From Chiloscyllium plagiosum (taxonomy: Eukaryota): DNA of 64,000 nt. The notes below the pieces were generated by a model. The model was not told the DNA's origin and made no database searches. It saw only the letters and a list, made by a program, of their open reading frames with translations. Positions within the stretch are counted from its first letter, which is position 1. Every line of letters begins with the position of its first letter. The translations under genes and the position numbers were made by a program. Shown piece after piece: positions 30,546 through 56,263 of this stretch. The stretch spans positions 22,021,296 to 22,085,295 of the forward strand of contig NC_057725.1 in NCBI RefSeq assembly GCF_004010195.1. Reading direction: 5' to 3'.

Positions 30546-32379
30546 ATTACTGTAGACACGTCCGTTGGCCTCATGCCCCACATCTCACTGCAGGAGTCAG
30601 ACTGAGTAAGTGCCTCTTAAATATTTGGAGAAAGGTACATGGATCTAACACCAAGTCATTTCAAGAGCATGGAAAGAAAGATCTCTCCTTTAAGATGTTC
30701 CACTCGTACCTAAATATATGGACTATTAAATTAATATCTCAATGATCTCTTGAACAGCTAACTCTAATTAGTCATGCTTTAGAAAACAAAGAAAGCTGTC
30801 GTTCCCAGTGGGCCATTAATTAAAAAGCTGCAACACATCATTAAGTCTTTCGATGGGTCAGTAAGGAAAGAGAGCAAATTTATTAAAATACAATGCTCTC
30901 CCTGTGAAACATTGAGAAAAAAAATTGCAGCCCAGCGGGATACTGCACTCATTATTGGAATAAACAAGGAGTTGTTTTCTTTGCAGGATGATCTGGATGT
31001 ACTGTCTGAAACGGAGGAGGAAAGGGAGATTCGAATAAGTTTCAACAGAGAATTTGATCAGCGTATTTGGAAAATTATAATTTACAGAGCTATGGAAAAA
31101 GAACAGGAAAGTGAGACTAATTATTCAGCTCTTACAAAGAGTCAGCAGTGGCATGATGAATTGAATGATCTTCTTTAACGCTTTGAGTTCCTTTTGATTC
31201 CTGGCATGTGATGGGACCTGTCACTTAGAACAAATGCGTGCCCTGAGGCTCTTCTGAAAGACAATAGGAGCGCCAAGGGGATTTTACAGATGGCAGCAAA
31301 TGAAGAGGTCATAATCGAAGGGCCAACAGCTCAACAACAGTGACAGTGCCACTAAACACAGCCGAGGCTGCAGGGAGAAGGAGAGAGCAGCTCTGTATTG
31401 AGGTGATGTCGATGGGTTGGTGAGATTCTCTTTAAAGAACAGTGTCCCTGCAAGCAGGATCTGGTGGTCAGATAGGTGAACCCTGCAGTGGCAGAGTTGG
31501 AGCAACAGTGCGATTGAAGAAGGGCCCCTTTATGGCCATTGAAATACCCCAATGTTTCTCAGATTCAGCTTCCTTTCAGTAAACTATTTTACAAGATTGG
31601 TTGCTACCTTTCTTATCAACTTATCAGCAGCATTTTCAAAGCATCTCCCTGACTGCACTGGTCAACAGGAGAAATACATCCGGCTCGTGTAAAACAATTT
31701 TCTCTCCCTCTTTAGTCTTGCCGGTGTCCAAGCCTCTCTCTGACATCTGCAGAGGTGCAGCCATCTGTGCTCTCCTGGACCTCTGAGGCCCACAACATAC
31801 ACTAAGGCTGCTGCCCAGTGACCTATTTCCTGCTTCCTGCTCACATACCACACAGTATATTCACATTGGGAGTTACATTTTGTCACTTACATTTGTAGAA
31901 CAGAGAAGATCATTCAGCCTATTGTGGTGCTGCAGCCAAGTCCTGACATCAGCAGATTTGAACTGCCATCTCTATCCATTTGCTTGCTCTGGTAGAGAGA
32001 TCTCTTATTCCTGGGCTATCAGAACATCCCGCTGTCCACTCTCAGCCTATTGAAGGCACACAGGGAATCATCATCAAACCATGGGGCCATCAATGTCGCT
32101 CCTGGCAGCCAATGCTATGGGAATGGGTCCCTTGACCTTGTCAGTGTTGATCTGGTGATATTTTCTCCTTTATTATCAGAGGAAGCAGGAAATACAGCTG
32201 CCACAAAAAATTACATTAAATCATCATCAACAGATCACCCTTAAGTACTAAATTTCAAGGTAACAAACCAAGGCAACCTCTGATCAGAATTTTATTCCAG
32301 GTTGATTTTCAGACTGGAAGAAAATACTTCAATTTTAATTGGTAAAAAGATAACAATCTCTCCCTCAAAGTGAACAAAA

Positions 32380-40293: not shown

Positions 40294-40476
40294 CAAGATC
40301 TTCCAGCAATGGCATTCAGTACATCTCATCATGGTCCTCTTCAATAGCCCTTGTGCACTTTTCCAGCTACTTCAGTATTATTGTATTCGCAGGACATTTG
40401 GATAATTCCAGTCGCCAATGATTGTTTAAAAGCAGTTGTACATAAGTGGGGTTTGTTCCCATATGCCTCAAATATT
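40294..40476 (-). pseudogene. CRY2: Cryptochrome pseudogene exon 4 (183 nt vs expected 185)
   Basis: tttgcag| IFEAYGNKP(fs)PLMYNCF*TIIG(fs)RLELSKCPANTIILK*LEKCTRAIEEDHDEMY*MPLLEDLG |gtaaat aligns end to end with recalled CRY2 [62 protein letters not shown]; 2 frameshifts and 3 stops. Confidence 0.88.
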
Positions 40477-40896
40477 CTGCAAACACATTGCAGACATTTT
40501 TTATAATGAGGGAAAAACATTTTTTACACTGACAAACAACAATTACACATCATTCAAAAAACTCACAAATATTTAAGCTTACTGAGCACAGTGAAAAAAA
40601 ACAAACACGGGAGTTATTGAACAGCTCCCTGTCTTTTTTCTGTGTTAGTATCAGCTGAGTGTCACATTTATTTAATTTCCTTCAGCTGGTACAGGTTTAG
40701 TATGATGACTGGGCAGATTTATTCCAACTGATCTGTCAGAACACATGTACTGCAGTGAGACCTTCCTTCCTTTAATCCAAAAATACCAAACGTTTAAATC
40801 TGCAACATACACTCACCATTTTTTACAATGAGAATACATAAGACACCTTCAGTAGTCAAGTCTAAGTCTCCCCAAGCAGTTTAAGAATTTGAGTTC

Positions 40897-41632
40897 AGTG
40901 GAATGCCACAAGGATCAGTGCTGGGTCCTCTACTTTTTGTCATTTACATAAATGATTTGGATGTGAGCATAAGTTAGTAAGTTTGCAGATGACACCAAAA
41001 TTGGAGGTGTAGTGGACAGCGAAGAGGATCTGGACCAGATGGGCCAATGGGCTGAGAAGTGGCAGATGAAGTTTAATTCAGATAAATGCGAGGTGCTGCA
41101 TTTTGGGAAAGCAAATCTTAGCAGGACTTATACACTTAATGGTAAGGTCCTAGGGAGTGTTGNNNNNNNNNNNNNNNNNNNNNNNNNNNNNNNNNNNNNN
41201 NNNNNNNNNNNNNNNNNNNNNNNNNNNNNNNNNNNNNNNNNNNNNNNNNNNNNNNNNNNNNNNNNNNNNNNNNNNNNNNNNNNNNNNNNNNNNNNNNNNN
41301 NNNNNNNNNNNNNNNNNNNNNNNNNNNNNNNNNNNNNNNNNNNNNNNNNNNNNNNNNNNNNNNNNNNNNGGGTGAGAGGGGAAAGATATAAAAGAGACCT
41401 AAGGGGCAACTTTTTCACGCAGAGGGTAGTACATATATGGAATGAACTGCCAGAGGATGTGGTGGAGGCTGGTATAATTGCAACATTTAAGAGGCATTTG
41501 GATGGGTATATGAATAGGAAGGATTTGGAGGGATATGGGCCGGGTGCTGGCAGGTGGGACTAGATTGGGTCGGGATATCTGGTCAGCATGGACGGGTTGT
41601 ACATGCTGTACATCTCTATGACTATGACTCTA
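40897..41632 (+). mobile_element. CR1 LINE 3' part in intron 3 of the pseudogene, spanning an assembly gap
   Basis: PQGSVLGPLLF, FADDTK, WAEKWQMKFN and FFTQRVVHIWNELP motifs. Confidence 0.9.
41163..41369. other. Assembly gap (N run)
   Basis: Run of n characters inside a CR1 copy. Confidence 1.
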
Positions 41633-42116
41633 CGTCTGAAAATCAAAAACTACTACAGTATAACACCTTTATTTTATTCTTTAAAGTATACACACTCTCT
41701 CTACCCCCTGGATAGTTTAGAGCTCGGGGGCCCACAGTCCCAAAGGATTTAGCCACTTCGGACTGAGCTAAGAAGTACCTTTGTTTGGGGGCTGTGGATC
41801 TTTGGATGCTGAGGTGTTGAGTATATTCAGGACTAAGATCGATAGGTTGTAAGACACTGAGGGAATCAAGGGTTTCTAGGATTAAGTAGGCAGGTGGAGT
41901 TAAGGTTAAAAATCAGTACTATCTTACTGAATGGCAGACCAGGCACAAAATACATTCTTCTGTTCCTCTTTCTTAATTCATTATGTATTAATAGCAACAA
42001 GGGCACTACACACACAAAAAATCTTTTGCTTTATATGACTTACTTTACACATTATAGAACTATCAAGTAAAAATAGTCCATTTGATTTAAAAATCAAAAA
42101 AACAAAATGAATTTAT

Positions 42117-42254
42117 CAGTAAACATTATGCAGGATATGTGAGATTTGGGCAATAACTTCCAAATAACTTCACCAACGTCGTAATGGCTACATCCCTTGC
42201 CTTTCCAAAAGACTCAGATTCTTATTCAAAAGTGAGTTGTGTCATATTATATTC
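42117..42254 (-). pseudogene. CRY2: Cryptochrome pseudogene exon 3 (138 nt vs expected 143)
   Basis: ctgcaccag| EYNMTQLTFE*ESESFGKARDVAITTLVK(5-nt deletion)EVIAQISHILHNVY |ataaat vs recalled CRY2 [47 protein letters not shown]; Tyr to TAA stop, frameshift, donor GT changed to AT. Confidence 0.88.
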
Positions 42255-42459
42255 CTGGTGCAGAAAAATGAAAACATTACACTGCAATAATATATATAGT
42301 TACATGGGATTTGGGTGTGTGGTGGTTGCTCCCAGAGTTTCCTGTAGTGCAAAACTGTAGCTAGGCTAGGCCGATGAATCAACTGGCAGGTCATAGATTG
42401 ACTTTCTGCCTCCTTATAGGGTGAAAGCACAAACCTAACTGCATTAAATCTAAATTTAC

Positions 42460-42565
42460 CTTAAATAATTTTGGAAATATACCAGGTGATTGCCATCAAA
42501 TAACAAAAAGCCTGGAGTTAAGTTTCTTCAGATTGTTATCCAGATCCTGGCACTGGAGGTGAAAT
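42460..42565 (-). pseudogene. CRY2: Cryptochrome pseudogene exon 2 (106 nt vs expected 109)
   Basis: cccttctctttag| [34 protein letters not shown] |gtaaat vs recalled CRY [36 protein letters not shown]; one codon deleted, Arg to TGA stop, both splice sites intact. Confidence 0.92.
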
Positions 42566-43739
42566 CTAAAGAGAAGGGAGACAATTGATTTGCAAAGAAA
42601 ACTCCTGATCTCTGTCAAAAACGTAAGAAATAAGAGATGGAGGTAAGCCATGCTAATTTTAAGCCATTTTATAAGATCATTGCTGAACTTACGCATCATA
42701 TCCTCTCTGTGAACATACACTGTTTCATAGAGTGCCCAAAAAGTTACCACTTTAAAATTTAGTCTTATATATTTGAAAACTGAACAGCATCCACAGATCA
42801 CTGGGGCAAGAGTGCCAAAGACCAGCATTTGTAACATTAGCTCAATCAAATACTGTTGGAATAGTGAGAGCAGGGCACGGAAGTAAATGGTCAATTGTAC
42901 AGTTATTCAGGAGGTAGACTAGGATTTATCTGTCTTAATTTATCCGGGGTAACTATCTAGGAATATAAATGAAACACCTTAAGTTACTGACTCTAGCTCA
43001 GAGTGGGATATTTTTGCATAGGGCTTCTGGGAAAAGTAGGATTGCCCTTTAGAAGTTCAAACTTCTTGGGAAATTCCCAGGGAGTAATGGCATCAGTATT
43101 TTGGTGGGGTCCTGATTTGCATCTTGGGTCATAAATCTGATCTCCCGATGATCTGGGGAGTGGAAGATCTGGCCCATTTCCCACCAATCTTTTTCAGGTA
43201 GTACATTCCAAATGATTATAACTGACTAAGTTTCACTTCTTTTGTCGTCCATTATGTAACTAGCCATTACCATTCAGTGGGGCTTATATCAACTGGAGGA
43301 TCCAACAATGACTGTTTTATGTCCTCTCAAAAGCAGGATGCTTAACCAAGACAATCTATAGTATTGACAATATTGTTTTAATGTTAGCAGAGAAACTCAC
43401 GAGCAACAAAATTTAAGGTAGGAAGCAATGCCACTTCCTTATGTTATGGAAGTGAGCTGTCAGACTAGATTAATATTTAAACATAAAATGATAATAAATG
43501 TTTGGTTTATCCTACGAGTTAATTTTTAAAGAATGATTCAGACATTTAAGGCTCACTTTTCTAGGTACCCAAGAAATAACGAACAGAAAAATCGTGGCTA
43601 ATTATACAATTGACAGCCCCACCCCTACTCCTCCCATTTTCATTGTGAAAAAGTATCATTCAATTAACATCATTTTTGTTTTAAAAAATAAAATATTGTT
43701 AAAGTGTTTCTCTTGTTTTTTTATTTCTATTGGCATTTG

Positions 43740-44460
43740 AGCCACGGAATAGCGGCTGTTAAAATGCTGTATCTCTCAGGACAATGTTTTTTTTAAACTG
43801 TCTCGTTGTAAGAGTTCCGAGCCCTATCCGGGACGTTACCTGAAATACCAGTGCTGACTGAAAGACAGACTTTCCTTTCAGTTCCCTTGTTACTAACTGC
43901 AGGAATTTACCGCAGATCTCCATCCCCGGGCACTCCAATCCAAATTCACTCAAACACTAAAAACAATTCACTGACACAACGGACATGGAATTCGGGAGGA
44001 AATTAAACAAACTTTTGCTACTTGCACCATCCACCCCGCATCTCACCTGGAAAACTAAAAAAGGCAACGTTTAATCTCAAAATCTAACGACTTCCTACTT
44101 TAACAGAGACTGGTCATGGGCTTCTTTATTCAAAATACGTCACTCCCAGAAATGGAAACTTTTGCTCTTGCTTTGATTAGGAATGGGCAAACCATTAATT
44201 TTTTTTTTAAAAAAACGACAAAACTCAATTTATTGATCCGGATGTTTGAAGATCCTGCAAACCCCGGATACGTGATGTAAACAGATCTGACAGGGTCAGC
44301 CCCCGAAAGGGAGCGCTGCAAGGCTGGGTTGTCCTGGAGTAGCGAAACCACTGCATTGAGCTACAAATCATTTTAACTCCAGCTGAGAGCAACCGGACCT
44401 ACCAGTAAATAGGATAAAACCTGATTCCTTGCGATCTAATGGACGCTCTGCCGATCACAA
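43740..44460 (-). promoter_or_regulatory. Relatively CpG-rich region around cryptochrome exon 1 (relic promoter / CpG island)
   Basis: Visibly more CG dinucleotides than the flanking non-repeat DNA, centred on exon 1; CCAAT motifs near 44707 and 44729. Confidence 0.45.
44224..44371 (-). pseudogene. CRY2: Cryptochrome pseudogene exon 1, coding part (148 nt vs expected 158)
   Basis: ATG at 44371: MICSSMQWFR(10-nt deletion)LLQDNPALQRSLSGADPVRSVYITYPGFAGSSNIRINKL vs recalled vertebrate CRY M.VNSVHWFRKGLRLHDNPAL....GAD.[22 protein letters not shown]; frameshift and damaged donor (ag|tttt). Confidence 0.92.
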
Positions 44461-45829
44461 AGTACATCACTCCCAGATGCTTTTACATGTAAAAGCTAGT
44501 GTTTTGTTTTGAAGAACTGGTTACTCTCCTCCCAGGGGATCGAAGCAAAGTAGCTCGTCATTGAGAATAGGTTTTCTTAAAACTACATAATCAGAAGAAA
44601 TTGCACTAAATCTGTTGAACAACATGAGCCAGTTTCTGTGCAAACATAATATCAAGCTGGTTATCAAAACGCAACATTTAATAAGAAGGGAAGGTCGCCA
44701 AAGCTCATTGGACAGCCTCGTCCATATCCAATGGAGCAGATGTATGGGAACGCCTCCACCAGCAACTTCCCCTCCAAGCCACGCGCCATCCTAATTTTGA
44801 GCCATATCGCCATTCCTTTACTGTCACAAGTCAAAATTCTGAAACTCCCTCCTGAATTGCACTATGGTTTTTGTTACAACACAAAGACTACAATTGTTCA
44901 AGGAGACAGCTACCATCATCTTCTCAATGTCCAGAGGTCAGGAAGAGATAGATCCTAACTTATTTCTTGGAAAAACGATAGCATGTTGTTGAAATCATTT
45001 TTCTTAAAATGGACTCTCTCTGCTATTGAACACGGAATGAGCAGGTTGACTGCTTGCCAAAGTTTCCAGCAATTACTAAGGTAAAAGTGTACTCTTCACC
45101 TCCAGCCTTGTGAACATTCCAGCCAAACCAACAGAAAGGAGTTCTAAACAAGATGGCTAAGCCAATTGTGAACAATGGAGACTGTCAAACCTATTACAAA
45201 ACAGAAATTGCATGAATGATTTATTGTCACATGTATTTTACAATTAAATACAAAAAAACACAATGAAAAGTTTTCATTTGTCGACAATCAGGCATCATTT
45301 TGATAGTTGCAGAATAAGAGAAAATGAAAAGATGTAGCTTAGAAGAGAAGTCCATCTATGTATAGATTCTGAGCTAACACAGAACCGCCACTGCTTTGCC
45401 AGACCCAACTTACATCAAAGTCACTGATCCTTGGGCGCGATCATTTGGCGCTGGGCCGATTCACCTTTGTCACCACCCATGCCGGGCACACCAATGTCAA
45501 AGACTATCACCATGGTCAGTGGTGCCGTGATACCTTCCCACTACCGGTCCCAGCCAATGATGAAGTTGCCTATTCTCAGGCACCATGTTTCGTTGCTGGG
45601 CCTACCTCACTGATGTCACCTCAGGGCTTGCTCTCCTCTGCGCTGGGCTCATAAATTGCTGGAAAATCTCAGGCTATTACAGCTTGATGCAAAAACCTTG
45701 GAGCCACTAACATCACTATTCACAGCTTTGAGCGACAATATACATGTCCAACAACTCTGGTGGTTGAGTGGGGCGGCGAAATGTTTTTGGGTTGATTATG
45801 AAAACTAGATTACCAGTGTATTTGTTTTC

Positions 45830-54459: not shown

Positions 54460-55019
54460 TTAGACTCCAGTTTCATTCTTCTCACGATTTCTGTTCACCG
54501 TTTCATCTTGCACTTTCTTCATCTCTAATCCCTTTACCCAGGTGTATGCAAAGGATCCAAAAAGGACCAGTATGTTACTAGTCCACCAGAGAAAGGTCTT
54601 TAGTTCTTCATAGTAAAACACTGCCAGAACAGTTTGTGCACACGCTTTAGCAGTACCAGAGACATTGTGCGTCAAGGGACTGGTGAATTTAATCTGCAGT
54701 CCTGTGACGTATCCAATAGCAAAACCAAACATACCACCCAGGATCATTACACCCCAAAAGTTAGTGCTGCTTATTTTGTCAAAGAGATACAATGTTTTCA
54801 GTTCCCCACTGATTGTAATTAATGGAATAAAGAGGATACAGGCGTTAACATTGTTGTAGTAGGTTAATTTCCAGATGCTGCCGTCTACAGCTGGCAATAC
54901 CTTCTTTGTGTATATGGCATTCAGGGACACACACAAACTGGCAATCACACCAAACATTACTCCAGCCCAGGACAGACTGCCTGTTGCACCTTCCTGATTT
55001 AATCCCAGGCAAAAACCAC
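54460..55019 (-). CDS. SLC35C1: GDP-fucose transporter 1, last coding exon (exon 1 not seen in the window)
   Basis: Acceptor tttcttttctacag| at 55020-55021, phase 1, then an open frame [99 protein letters not shown], closely matching recalled human SLC35C1 exon 2. Confidence 0.97.
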
Positions 55020-56263
55020 CTGTAGAAAAGAAATGATAAAAACCATAAAGCAGCAGAAAAATCTACTTCTTTAATACTCAGATAATATGCTTCAACGACT
55101 TAGACCACTAAGCATTTTGATTATGGTGTACTTGACACAATAATGGAATCTGCAGCAAGTTGGAGTCCTTCAAACTGGTTTTGACTTCCAGCCAGTTTGT
55201 TCAAACAAATGTAAGGAGCCTCAAACAATACCTAGTATTCATTTATGACCACAAGGAAATGATAGAAAAAGGGCTGACATTCCATTTGAGAAGTTGTGTT
55301 CTTGTTTAACCCTCACATTCCCAACGGTTGCAAGTATGCCTTGAATTCCTCATCAATGCCAATTCACCCATCAATGGAAATTTGATGTGCCCAGACTCCT
55401 TTGAATTCTGGGCCTTTTGTTCGGGTCTTCCCAGCTCTAGTGAAACAATTTCAATCTCTCCTCCTAATGAATAACTCTCAAAGTATCTCCTGTCCTCTTT
55501 CAATATGTTTGATGCATTTTTTCTAGTAAGGCAAACTAAATGGCTAACTATTTACTTGAATAGGTTTTGACATTGTCTCTTTGCTCCTGCGCTCCCTGCT
55601 TCTATTCGAGATCTGTATCTACAATTTCTTGGACGTGTGTGGTCTCCAGGATACAGCGTGTGCTTGTAGCCACACGTGCAGGAAATACTCCACAGCTGTT
55701 CACACTTAAACTCAGGGTTTCAGAGGAAAAGCGGCTGGAGTCACTGCAGGGCCTCCAGGACACTAAGTATTTCTTGATGTTTGCATTCCATGAGGAGGCC
55801 ATCCTGTAACTCCAGAGATTTTAGGAGGATGATAATTGGGTGGTCCTCTAACAAGGTATGAAGATGCAGGAAGTGAAGTTTCCTTGGGATTATGGCACTC
55901 TCAAATAGGTTCTCAGTGCAGAAACACCTTGGGAGAATGCAGTTCAGAGCATTTCACAACATCACGGGACAAATCAATTTGGAAATGTAGCTACGATTGT
56001 GGTTTGATCAGAGCTTTAGACAGGGGTTTTCTGCAAAAGTCAACATGAATCTTGATGAGTTGTTTCCACCTTGCTTTCAGAGTAAAAGACATCATGGAGA
56101 GACTGCAGAACATTATGAAGACATTTCATATTTAATATTTCTTGGAGGATTTGCATTTTGATGGATTAATTTATTTCAAGATCAATGTGGACATCTGGCT
56201 TGGTTTAAACAAAAGTCACTGTGGTCATGAGTGAGCCATGTATGATTTGTGACTGACTACATT

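What the first reader, a model, noticed from the sequence alone, without database searches (positions are those of the whole stretch)
40294..44371. Fossil circadian clock gene: probable unitary CRY2 pseudogene next to SLC35C1
Seen in sequence: four minus-strand segments (44371-44224, 42565-42460, 42254-42117, 40476-40294) translate into cryptochrome exons 1-4 in the right order, with the canonical boundaries and phases. Every exon is disabled. Exon 1 has a 10-nt deletion and a damaged donor. Exon 2 has a codon deletion and an Arg-to-TGA stop. Exon 3 has a Tyr-to-TAA stop, a 5-nt deletion and a GT-to-AT donor. Exon 4 has two 1-nt deletions and three stops. Established knowledge: CRY2 lies directly downstream of SLC35C1 on the same strand in human, and exons 3-4 here carry CRY2-like residues (LTFE, KPP, EL.K.P). 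Inference: the introns rule out a retrocopy, so this is the syntenic CRY2 locus decayed in place. That would mean loss of a core clock repressor in this shark lineage, with the many lesions pointing to an old loss. The ORF track shows only two fragments of it, so annotation would probably miss it. I cannot confirm whether this loss is already published.
Basis: partly seen in the sequence, partly recalled or inferred. Interest (0 to 1): 0.9.

Follow-up and report, generated by a model that had tools for sequence, protein, structure and literature searches.

The report
Dead CRY2 clock gene, bamboo shark
This bamboo shark genome keeps only scraps of the body-clock gene CRY2 (four crippled exons and a stray tail exon) and no working copy was found, which gives physical traces of a likely ancient loss that was already reported as an absence in carpet sharks.

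Summary
Confirmed. The four minus-strand segments are cryptochrome exons 1-4 with 12 lesions (5 stops, 4 frameshifting deletions, 1 codon deletion, 2 dead donors). The read-through groups inside CRY2 (100/100), as sister to lamniform and carcharhiniform CRY2 (96/92). A place outside CRY2 is rejected (AU p=0.002). The assembly's only intact cryptochromes found are CRY1 and a likely CRY3/cry1b, so this is a unitary pseudogene. The frameshifted tail exon lies 34 kb away on the opposite strand, beyond the SLC35C1-like gene and upstream of CSTF3, its neighbour in catsharks. So the gene was also cut by a deletion and probably an inversion; a scaffold flip at an N-gap is not excluded (about 40%). Decay is about 0.18 changes per site, roughly nine times the per-branch distance to two related species. 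The absence of CRY2 in carpet sharks is in print (PMC9498864), and cry2 losses are known in other fishes; my searches found no description of the remnant. Zebrafish Cry2 is non-repressive, so 'loss of a core repressor' is unproven. Real, with moderate interest.

The parts
44224..44371 (-). CRY2 pseudo-exon 1: ATG kept, 10-nt deletion, donor reads TT
   Evidence: best database hit is catshark CRY2 (3 hits among 18 candidates)
42460..42565 (-). CRY2 pseudo-exon 2: codon deletion, Arg-to-TGA stop at 42498
   Evidence: Pfam DNA_photolyase E 0.006, under the cut-off
42117..42254 (-). CRY2 pseudo-exon 3: Tyr-to-TAA stop at 42224, 5-nt deletion, donor reads AT
40294..40476 (-). CRY2 pseudo-exon 4: two 1-nt deletions, stops at 40428, 40369 and 40318; donor GT intact
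41163..41369 (.). 207-N assembly gap inside a LINE copy in intron 3
54460..55021 (-). Last coding exon of the SLC35-family transporter gene (name SLC35C1 recalled). Its first coding exon lies about 7.5-8.1 kb past the window's right edge, also minus strand. The CRY2 tail exon (G000:C16:22099964-22100111, plus strand) and CSTF3 lie further right, outside the window; see Noticed in passing and the full report
   Evidence: (Pfam TPT)

Best explanation
These are the remains of the shark's only CRY2 gene, which carries stops, frameshifts or dead splice donors in every surviving exon and likely died long ago, probably in an ancestor shared with other carpet sharks. Shown: orthology to CRY2, the lesions, no other CRY2 sequence found in the assembly, exons 5-9 not found, and the tail exon on the opposite strand next to CSTF3. 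Inferred steps: (1) CRY2 was already under loosened constraint in elasmobranchs while CRY1 and a second CRY1-type gene (likely CRY3/cry1b) supplied CLOCK:BMAL1 repression; (2) after the split from lamniform and carcharhiniform sharks it was inactivated and then drifted neutrally to about 0.18 changes per site; (3) a deletion removed the FAD-binding core (exons 5-10); (4) the block holding the SLC35C1-like gene and exons 1-4 was inverted (about 60% real, 40% scaffold flip), likely after the gene was dead. It cannot make a cryptochrome; the order of the first hit (point lesion or deletion) is unknown.
For: Tree: PSEUDO inside CRY2 100/100, chondrichthyan CRY2 100/98, sister to Carcharodon+Mustelus+Scyliorhinus 96/92, end branch 0.52 against a median of 0.041. 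Holding it outside CRY2 with the CRY1-type rows is rejected, AU p=0.0019. Of 25 diagnostic columns 19 are CRY2-like, 3 CRY1/3-like and 3 neither; it shares M93 and A108 with galeomorph CRY2. Pfam and protein searches of G000 find full cryptochromes only on C19 and C26; both have 9 open core exons and fall outside CRY2 100/100. Searches with CRY2 exons 5-6, 7-8 and 9 hit only those two loci at E<0.3, while one search did find the decayed exons at 26-39 bits. CRY2 proteins appear for 9 chondrichthyan species and no carpet shark (120 listed of 3816 hits; members of 5 clusters), though 5 carpet-shark species are in the collection for the neighbour CHST1. PMC9498864 reports MCRY1 only in Orectolobiformes.
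Against: The assembly has 101,977 contigs and many gaps (22 N-runs in the 664 kb held), so a copy missing from the assembly cannot be excluded. The genome search scores only its best candidates, and one search used a stricter first look. Three diagnostic columns side with CRY1/3, and exon 2 alone is no closer to CRY2 (20-22 of 35) than to CRY1-type proteins (22-24 of 35). The best PDB hit for the exon-4 piece was a CRY1 (27.9 bits against 25.8 for CRY2). The pseudogene is a long branch. Lesions were not seen directly in other species, so a single shared loss is inferred from absence. No contig spanned the gap between the SLC35C1-like gene and the tail exon.
Confidence: 0.92

Rival explanations
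1. The pseudogene is real but the opposite orientation of the tail exon is an assembly artefact: the block from about -25152 to 74818 (extended window coordinates) was scaffolded the wrong way round between two inverted copies of one young LINE.
For: The orientation switch must lie in the 6.5 kb between 72.1k and 78.67k, which holds a 261-N gap inside a LINE. An inverted copy of the same LINE sits at the gap -25491..-25152, and flipping between the two would restore CHST1(-), SLC35C1(+), CRY2(+), CSTF3(+). No contig from 3 contig runs spans the gap.
Against: About 400-600 bases left of the gap two pieces of one older repeat are joined in opposite orientation (13 of 24 other copies hold the small piece on the opposite strand), and a contig of organism C runs across that joint. 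A 900-bp duplicate of a CSTF3 exon and intron at 86.8k (78% identity) also shows that the interval rearranges. A flip would leave 65 kb with no exon trace between exon 4 and the tail. None of this proves the large inversion.
Confidence: 0.4
2. A dead duplicate: an intact CRY2 exists elsewhere but is missing from this assembly.
For: The assembly is fragmented, and the genome searches give lower bounds.
Against: The remnant sits at the expected locus between CHST1/SLC35C1 and CSTF3. Five searches of G000 with CRY families or CRY2 pieces show no third core. No carpet-shark CRY2 protein appeared, and PMC9498864 agrees.
Confidence: 0.05
3. The deletion or inversion was the killing event, and the point lesions came afterwards.
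For: Loss of the whole FAD-binding core would inactivate the gene at one stroke, and the surviving exons are similarly decayed (51-69% identity to sawshark CRY2).
Against: The repeat at the candidate junction has relatives 84-87% identical (best 40 of 2606 candidates), about 0.07 per branch, younger than the 0.18 decay. If the junction lies there, the inversion post-dates death. The deletion itself cannot be dated here.
Confidence: 0.25
4. A decayed CRY1, CRY3 or CRY4 copy, or a retrocopy.
For: The exon lengths match the genome's own CRY1-type genes as well, and the top PDB score for the exon-4 piece is a CRY1.
Against: Introns at all three conserved positions; 63-64% nucleotide identity to the genome's own CRY1 and CRY3, which are 74% identical to each other; AU p=0.0019. 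The entry 6ptz (bird CRY4 by my recall) was not hit at E<=10 by the exon-3 or exon-4 pieces. No CRY4 row was in the tree.
Confidence: 0.02

Closest known systems
Reported absence of MCRY2 in Orectolobiformes (PMC9498864; passages and section 3.5 read, supplement not readable)
   Same: Same gene and same shark order; the genome belongs to a bamboo shark.
   Different: In the passages I read the paper reports absence from protein collections. Here the remnant, its lesions, the missing core and the displaced tail exon are shown, and one of the two retained CRY1-type genes is likely CRY3/cry1b.
cry2 losses in Notothenioidei and Cottoidei (PMC13557501; passages)
   Same: Loss of the same clock paralogue in a vertebrate lineage, with the syntenic region kept.
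   Different: There most species lack any intact exon and the losses are tied to polar or deep habitats. Here exons survive in a shark group of warm to temperate waters (PMC8529718 passage).
Intact CRY2 of Scyliorhinus, Carcharodon, Mustelus, Pristiophorus, three skates and Callorhinchus (P0124, P0126, P0127, P0197, P0132, P0134, P0243, P0245, P0234)
   Same: Orthologues: 57-60% identity over exons 1-4 to the two tested, shared tail exon; CSTF3 is the same-strand neighbour in catsharks.
   Different: Those are annotated as proteins (the Carcharodon and Mustelus models lack a proper exon 1). This one is dead and lacks exons 5-9.
Loss of Cry3 (cry1b) in tetrapods (PMC4350181 passages; PMC4558521 abstract and synteny section)
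   Same: Loss of one ohnologue of the Cry1/2/3 group while two remain.
   Different: A mirror image: tetrapods kept Cry1 and Cry2; this shark kept Cry1 and likely Cry3.

Membership tests
Vertebrate cryptochrome (Cry1/2/3 group) | Photolyase-homology N-terminal region with conserved exon lengths and phases | tested here: met
CRY2 orthologue | Groups within CRY2 in a tree, not with CRY1/CRY3 | tested here: met
   100/100; AU p=0.0019; 19 of 25 diagnostic columns
CRY2 orthologue | Conserved neighbours (CHST1, SLC35C1 upstream; CSTF3 downstream in sharks) | tested here: met
   CHST1 named, about 720 kb to the left; SLC35-family gene adjacent (the exact name and the human order are recalled); CSTF3. 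Orientation is partly inverted
CRY2 orthologue | MAPK8IP1 directly downstream as in human (recalled) | tested here: inconclusive
   No PID hit near the locus among 23 matches (54 candidates scored); one unidentified hit at C16:25.59 Mb
Unitary pseudogene | Disabling lesions in the coding sequence | tested here: met
   12 lesions in exons 1-4 and 1 in the tail exon
Unitary pseudogene | No intact orthologue elsewhere in the genome | tested here: met
   limited by the completeness of the assembly
Unitary pseudogene | Orthologue intact in outgroups | tested here: met
   CRY2 proteins from 9 chondrichthyan species
Unitary pseudogene | Lesions present in raw reads | tested here: inconclusive
Single ancestral loss in Orectolobiformes | The same lesions in other carpet sharks | tested here: inconclusive
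Processed pseudogene (retrocopy) | Introns absent | tested here: not met
   Three introns at conserved positions
CRY4 | Groups with CRY4 | tested here: inconclusive
   No CRY4 row in the tree; the recalled CRY4 PDB entry was not hit; nesting among shark CRY2 argues against it
Core clock repressor (mammalian-type CRY2) | Represses CLOCK:BMAL1 | not testable with these tools
   Zebrafish Cry2 is non-repressive; shark CRY2 is untested here

The most novel reading that the evidence does not exclude
CRY2 is being retired across elasmobranchs. Catsharks, white shark, smooth-hound and skates carry CRY2 with altered FAD-pocket residues (Q289, W292, H355, H359 in mouse CRY1 numbering), and carpet sharks lost it outright in one old event later sealed by a deletion and an inversion. 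They would run a clock on CRY1 plus CRY3, the mirror image of the mammalian CRY1 plus CRY2 pair.
Probability: 0.35. Interest if true: 0.62.

Novelty: new member of a known kind. Interest (0 to 1): 0.42.

Why it matters
It turns a database absence into a verifiable gene loss with datable lesions, in two laboratory-kept genera (bamboo and epaulette sharks, if the loss is shared). These sharks are then natural CRY2 nulls in which one can ask whether CRY1 and the tetrapod-lost CRY3 suffice for a clock. Shared lesions and the rearrangement would also be phylogenetic markers within carpet sharks.

Tried and rejected
1. Profile and tblastn searches for exons 5-10 in 264 kb and 664 kb found nothing above the control. 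A local search for the poorly conserved exon 10 gave only chance hits, so its absence is weakly tested.
2. Laying 3 contig runs and 1 RNA run on extended coordinates 71400-79100 did not span the gap. In the RNA run (about 2% read, single-cell polyA) the tail exon had depth 0 and the SLC35C1 first exon about 1; this is too thin to use. No RNA holder was listed for exons 1-3; that is no evidence either way.
3. The gap length (261 against 471-492 missing LINE bases in 8 of 9 other copies) is uninformative, because other gaps are also short.
4. Flank-pairing tests around the two LINE gaps gave 0 spanning hits for all 4 pairings, and the continuation of the interrupted repeat was not found in 664 kb with 24 copies.
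5. Dating in years from the epaulette-shark mutation rate was rejected because it is per generation (PMC10587355 passages).
6. The first frame test of the tail exon was off by one residue and was redone.
7. An all-against-all ORF comparison of the two intact loci was swamped by repeats.
8. The ORF at 30783-31175 has no Pfam match.
9. The scan's earlier notes held nothing.
10. PMC7575087 and PMC11457068 (passages) had nothing on this point.
11. The supplement of PMC9498864, which the paper's text cites for the per-species distribution, could not be read.
12. PDB searches with exon 1 in its broken frame and with the transporter exon gave no match.
Full report
Setting. The window is G000:C16:22021296-22085295. 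Coordinates beyond 1-64000 below are extended window coordinates. The genome is a bamboo shark: its CRY1 exon is 99% identical to Chiloscyllium punctatum CRY1, and the neighbouring CHST1 protein is identical to one labelled Chiloscyllium plagiosum.

Observation. All four segments are as described. Lengths of 148, 106, 138 and 183 nt compare with 158, 109, 143 and 185 in the genome's two intact cryptochromes. Against sawshark CRY2 the read-through is 113 of 189 identical and scores 450, against -83 to -131 for five shuffles. It shows five stops, four frameshifting deletions (10, 5, 1 and 1 nt), one codon deletion and two dead donors (TT after exon 1, AT after exon 3). I did not lay reads on these exons. 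Eight runs from five same-species samples hold 0.72-0.95 of the 341 sampled words of 41400-44800 (one sample may be the assembly's source), and twelve lesions are too many for base-calling error.

Identity. The 40-residue exon-1 piece hit only three proteins among 18 candidates, all catshark models in which CRY2 is fused to CSTF3. I built a 39-row, 199-column tree from a chosen subset of the hits. The pseudogene lies in CRY2 (100/100), in chondrichthyan CRY2 (100/98), and is sister to Carcharodon, Mustelus and Scyliorhinus (96/92), the position expected of a carpet shark (expected order recalled); its branch is 0.52 against a median of 0.041. Two rows I had grouped with CRY1 before the run (Anoplopoma, Lates) fell in CRY2, in line with their database names. 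Forcing the pseudogene to the CRY1/outgroup side is rejected (p=0.0019). Of 25 diagnostic columns 19 are CRY2-like, 3 CRY1/3-like and 3 neither. Against this, exon 2 alone does not discriminate, and the top PDB score for the exon-4 piece is a CRY1. No CRY4 sequence was in the tree.

Unitary status. Pfam PF03441 and PF00875 find cryptochrome domains only on C19 and C26. Both genes splice into open 497-residue cores and fall outside CRY2 (100/100). C19 joins CRY1 with weak support (84/66). C26 joins bichir and eel paralogues (99/94), and one member of the bichir cluster is named cryptochrome 3b, so C26 is likely CRY3/cry1b; its synteny was not checked. Searches with catshark CRY2 and with pieces covering exons 5-6, 7-8 and 9 give only these two loci and the remnant; the other hits had E of 0.3 or worse. 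One search found the decayed exons at 26-39 bits, so an equally decayed exon 7 should have shown. CRY2 proteins were seen for nine chondrichthyan species and no carpet shark (120 listed of 3816 hits, limited to 305-973 residues; five clusters), while five carpet-shark species are present for CHST1.

A fifth remnant, the C-terminal tail exon, lies at 78669-78816 on the plus strand. Its first 13 codons fit catshark CRY2 best in the phase-1 frame (11 minimal changes against 17-24 at other offsets), which places a 1-nt deletion near 78709. Intact CSTF3 follows on the plus strand at 130143-213763; fused models in two Scyliorhinus species imply that CRY2 lies directly upstream of CSTF3 there. CHST1 is about 720 kb to the left on the minus strand. 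With the human order recalled as CHST1(-), SLC35C1(+), CRY2(+), the block holding the SLC35C1-like gene and exons 1-4 is the part that is turned round.

Is the inversion real? Not settled. The switch lies within 72.1-78.67 kb, which contains a 261-N gap in a young LINE, and an inverted copy of that LINE lies at the gap near -25.3 kb; a flip between them would restore collinearity. No contig spans the gap, and flank tests were blank. In favour of a real event: just left of the LINE, at 74231-74436, two pieces of one older repeat are joined in opposite orientation, a contig of organism C crosses that joint, and a 78%-identical duplicate of a CSTF3 exon lies at 86.8 kb. I put a real inversion at about 60%. 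The repeat's nearest copies are 84-87% identical, so a junction inside it would be younger than the gene's death.

Age. At 124 codons invariant in the functional chondrichthyan CRY2s, 42 are changed; at least 45 differences over 287 non-synonymous sites give 0.18 +/- 0.03. Mostly non-coding contigs of two related species in the flank differ by 35 of 1003 and 40 of 1116 (B), and 63 of 1441 and 77 of 1925 (C) (the two longest such pieces per run), about 0.02 per branch. So the decay is roughly nine times older than those splits; part of it may pre-date death. [quoted passage not shown] A single Mesozoic loss is the simplest reading but rests on absence in other species.

Mechanism. Of 265 columns invariant in 20 bony-vertebrate CRY1/2/3 proteins, chimaera CRY2 changes 11 and sawshark 14. 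White shark changes 22, catsharks 27-28 and skates 35-40; smooth-hound changes 38, of which 16 lie in an N-terminus that is not a true exon 1. Leave-one-out values in bony vertebrates are 0-15, and a bamboo-shark CRY1 model changes 14, half of them in a similarly odd N-terminus. The changes include Q289, W292, H355 and H359, which are FAD-pocket residues in mouse CRY1 (PMC8255803 passages; numbering checked). Zebrafish Cry2 is non-repressive while Cry1a and Cry1b repress (PMC4558521 abstract; PMC4350181 passages). The likely story is therefore redundancy: a drifting CRY2 was dispensable beside CRY1 and CRY3, was inactivated, decayed, lost its core by deletion and was probably inverted. The redundancy step is inference, and the drift could also reflect a changed function.

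Prior knowledge. PMC9498864 states that Orectolobiformes have MCRY1 only (passages; section 3.5); its supplement could not be read and may bear on which species were covered. PMC13557501 reports cry2 losses in notothenioids and cottoids (passages). Seven searches (listings and abstract starts seen) showed no description of this remnant; the library lacks most subscription journals. The scan's own notes held nothing.

Verdict. A real unitary CRY2 pseudogene (confidence 0.92), a new member of a known kind that documents a loss already noted as an absence. Interest 0.42. The boldest reading, staged retirement of CRY2 across elasmobranchs with a CRY1 plus CRY3 clock in carpet sharks, has probability about 0.35 and would merit 0.62.

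Noticed in passing
L090:7669-7816 (+) = G000:C16:22099964-22100111, extended window 78669-78816: Part of the finding but outside the window: the CRY2 C-terminal tail exon, on the opposite strand to exons 1-4, with a 1-nt deletion.
   Followed up: yes
L090:3231-3436, extended window 74231-74436: Two pieces of one old LTR-retrotransposon-like repeat joined in opposite orientation, just left of the LINE that holds the 261-N gap; possible scar of the rearrangement.
   Followed up: partly
extended window 130143-213763 (+), L050-L058: Intact CSTF3, on the same strand as the tail exon.
   Followed up: yes
P0121-P0131 (Scyliorhinus canicula and S. torazame models): Catshark CRY2 is hidden in annotation under the name CSTF3; several models splice the CRY2 tail exon into CSTF3, up to a 1257-residue fusion. 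Read-through or an annotation merge; a name search would wrongly score catsharks as lacking CRY2.
   Followed up: partly
P0124, P0126, P0127, P0197, P0134, P0243, P0245: Elasmobranch CRY2 proteins carry many changes at otherwise invariant positions, including FAD-pocket residues; the white shark and smooth-hound models lack a true exon 1 and the latter lacks part of exon 7.
   Followed up: partly
G000:C26:48119858-48191402 (L017-L025): Intact second CRY1-type gene that groups with bichir and eel paralogues; likely CRY3/cry1b, which PMC4350181 described from ray-finned fish and coelacanth. Its exon-2 donor is GC.
   Followed up: partly
extended window 86810-87706 (+), L041: Decayed 900-bp duplicate of a CSTF3 exon and intron, 78% identical to the intact gene, 43 kb upstream of it.
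   Followed up: partly
G000:C19:51519541-51520509 (L091): A CHST1-like single-exon sulfotransferase lies about 85 kb downstream of CRY1, echoing CHST1 near CRY2; possibly a paralogon remnant.
   Followed up: no
L067:2575-5964 (+): 1130-residue open frame with zinc fingers and reverse transcriptase, followed by an endonuclease-like frame (by eye); looks like a nearly intact non-LTR retroelement.
   Followed up: no
extended window 217497-217847 (-) and 306417-306857 (-), L059 and L068: Tcp11- and DEP-domain exons follow CSTF3 on the opposite strand, matching the recalled human TCP11L1-DEPDC7 order.
   Followed up: partly
window 30783-31175 (+): 131-residue open frame outside the repeat mask with no Pfam match; unexplained.
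   Followed up: partly
extended window -12534 to -8787 (L037, L038): Fragments of an LTR-retrotransposon-like element (gag-, integrase- and RT-like frames by eye).
   Followed up: no
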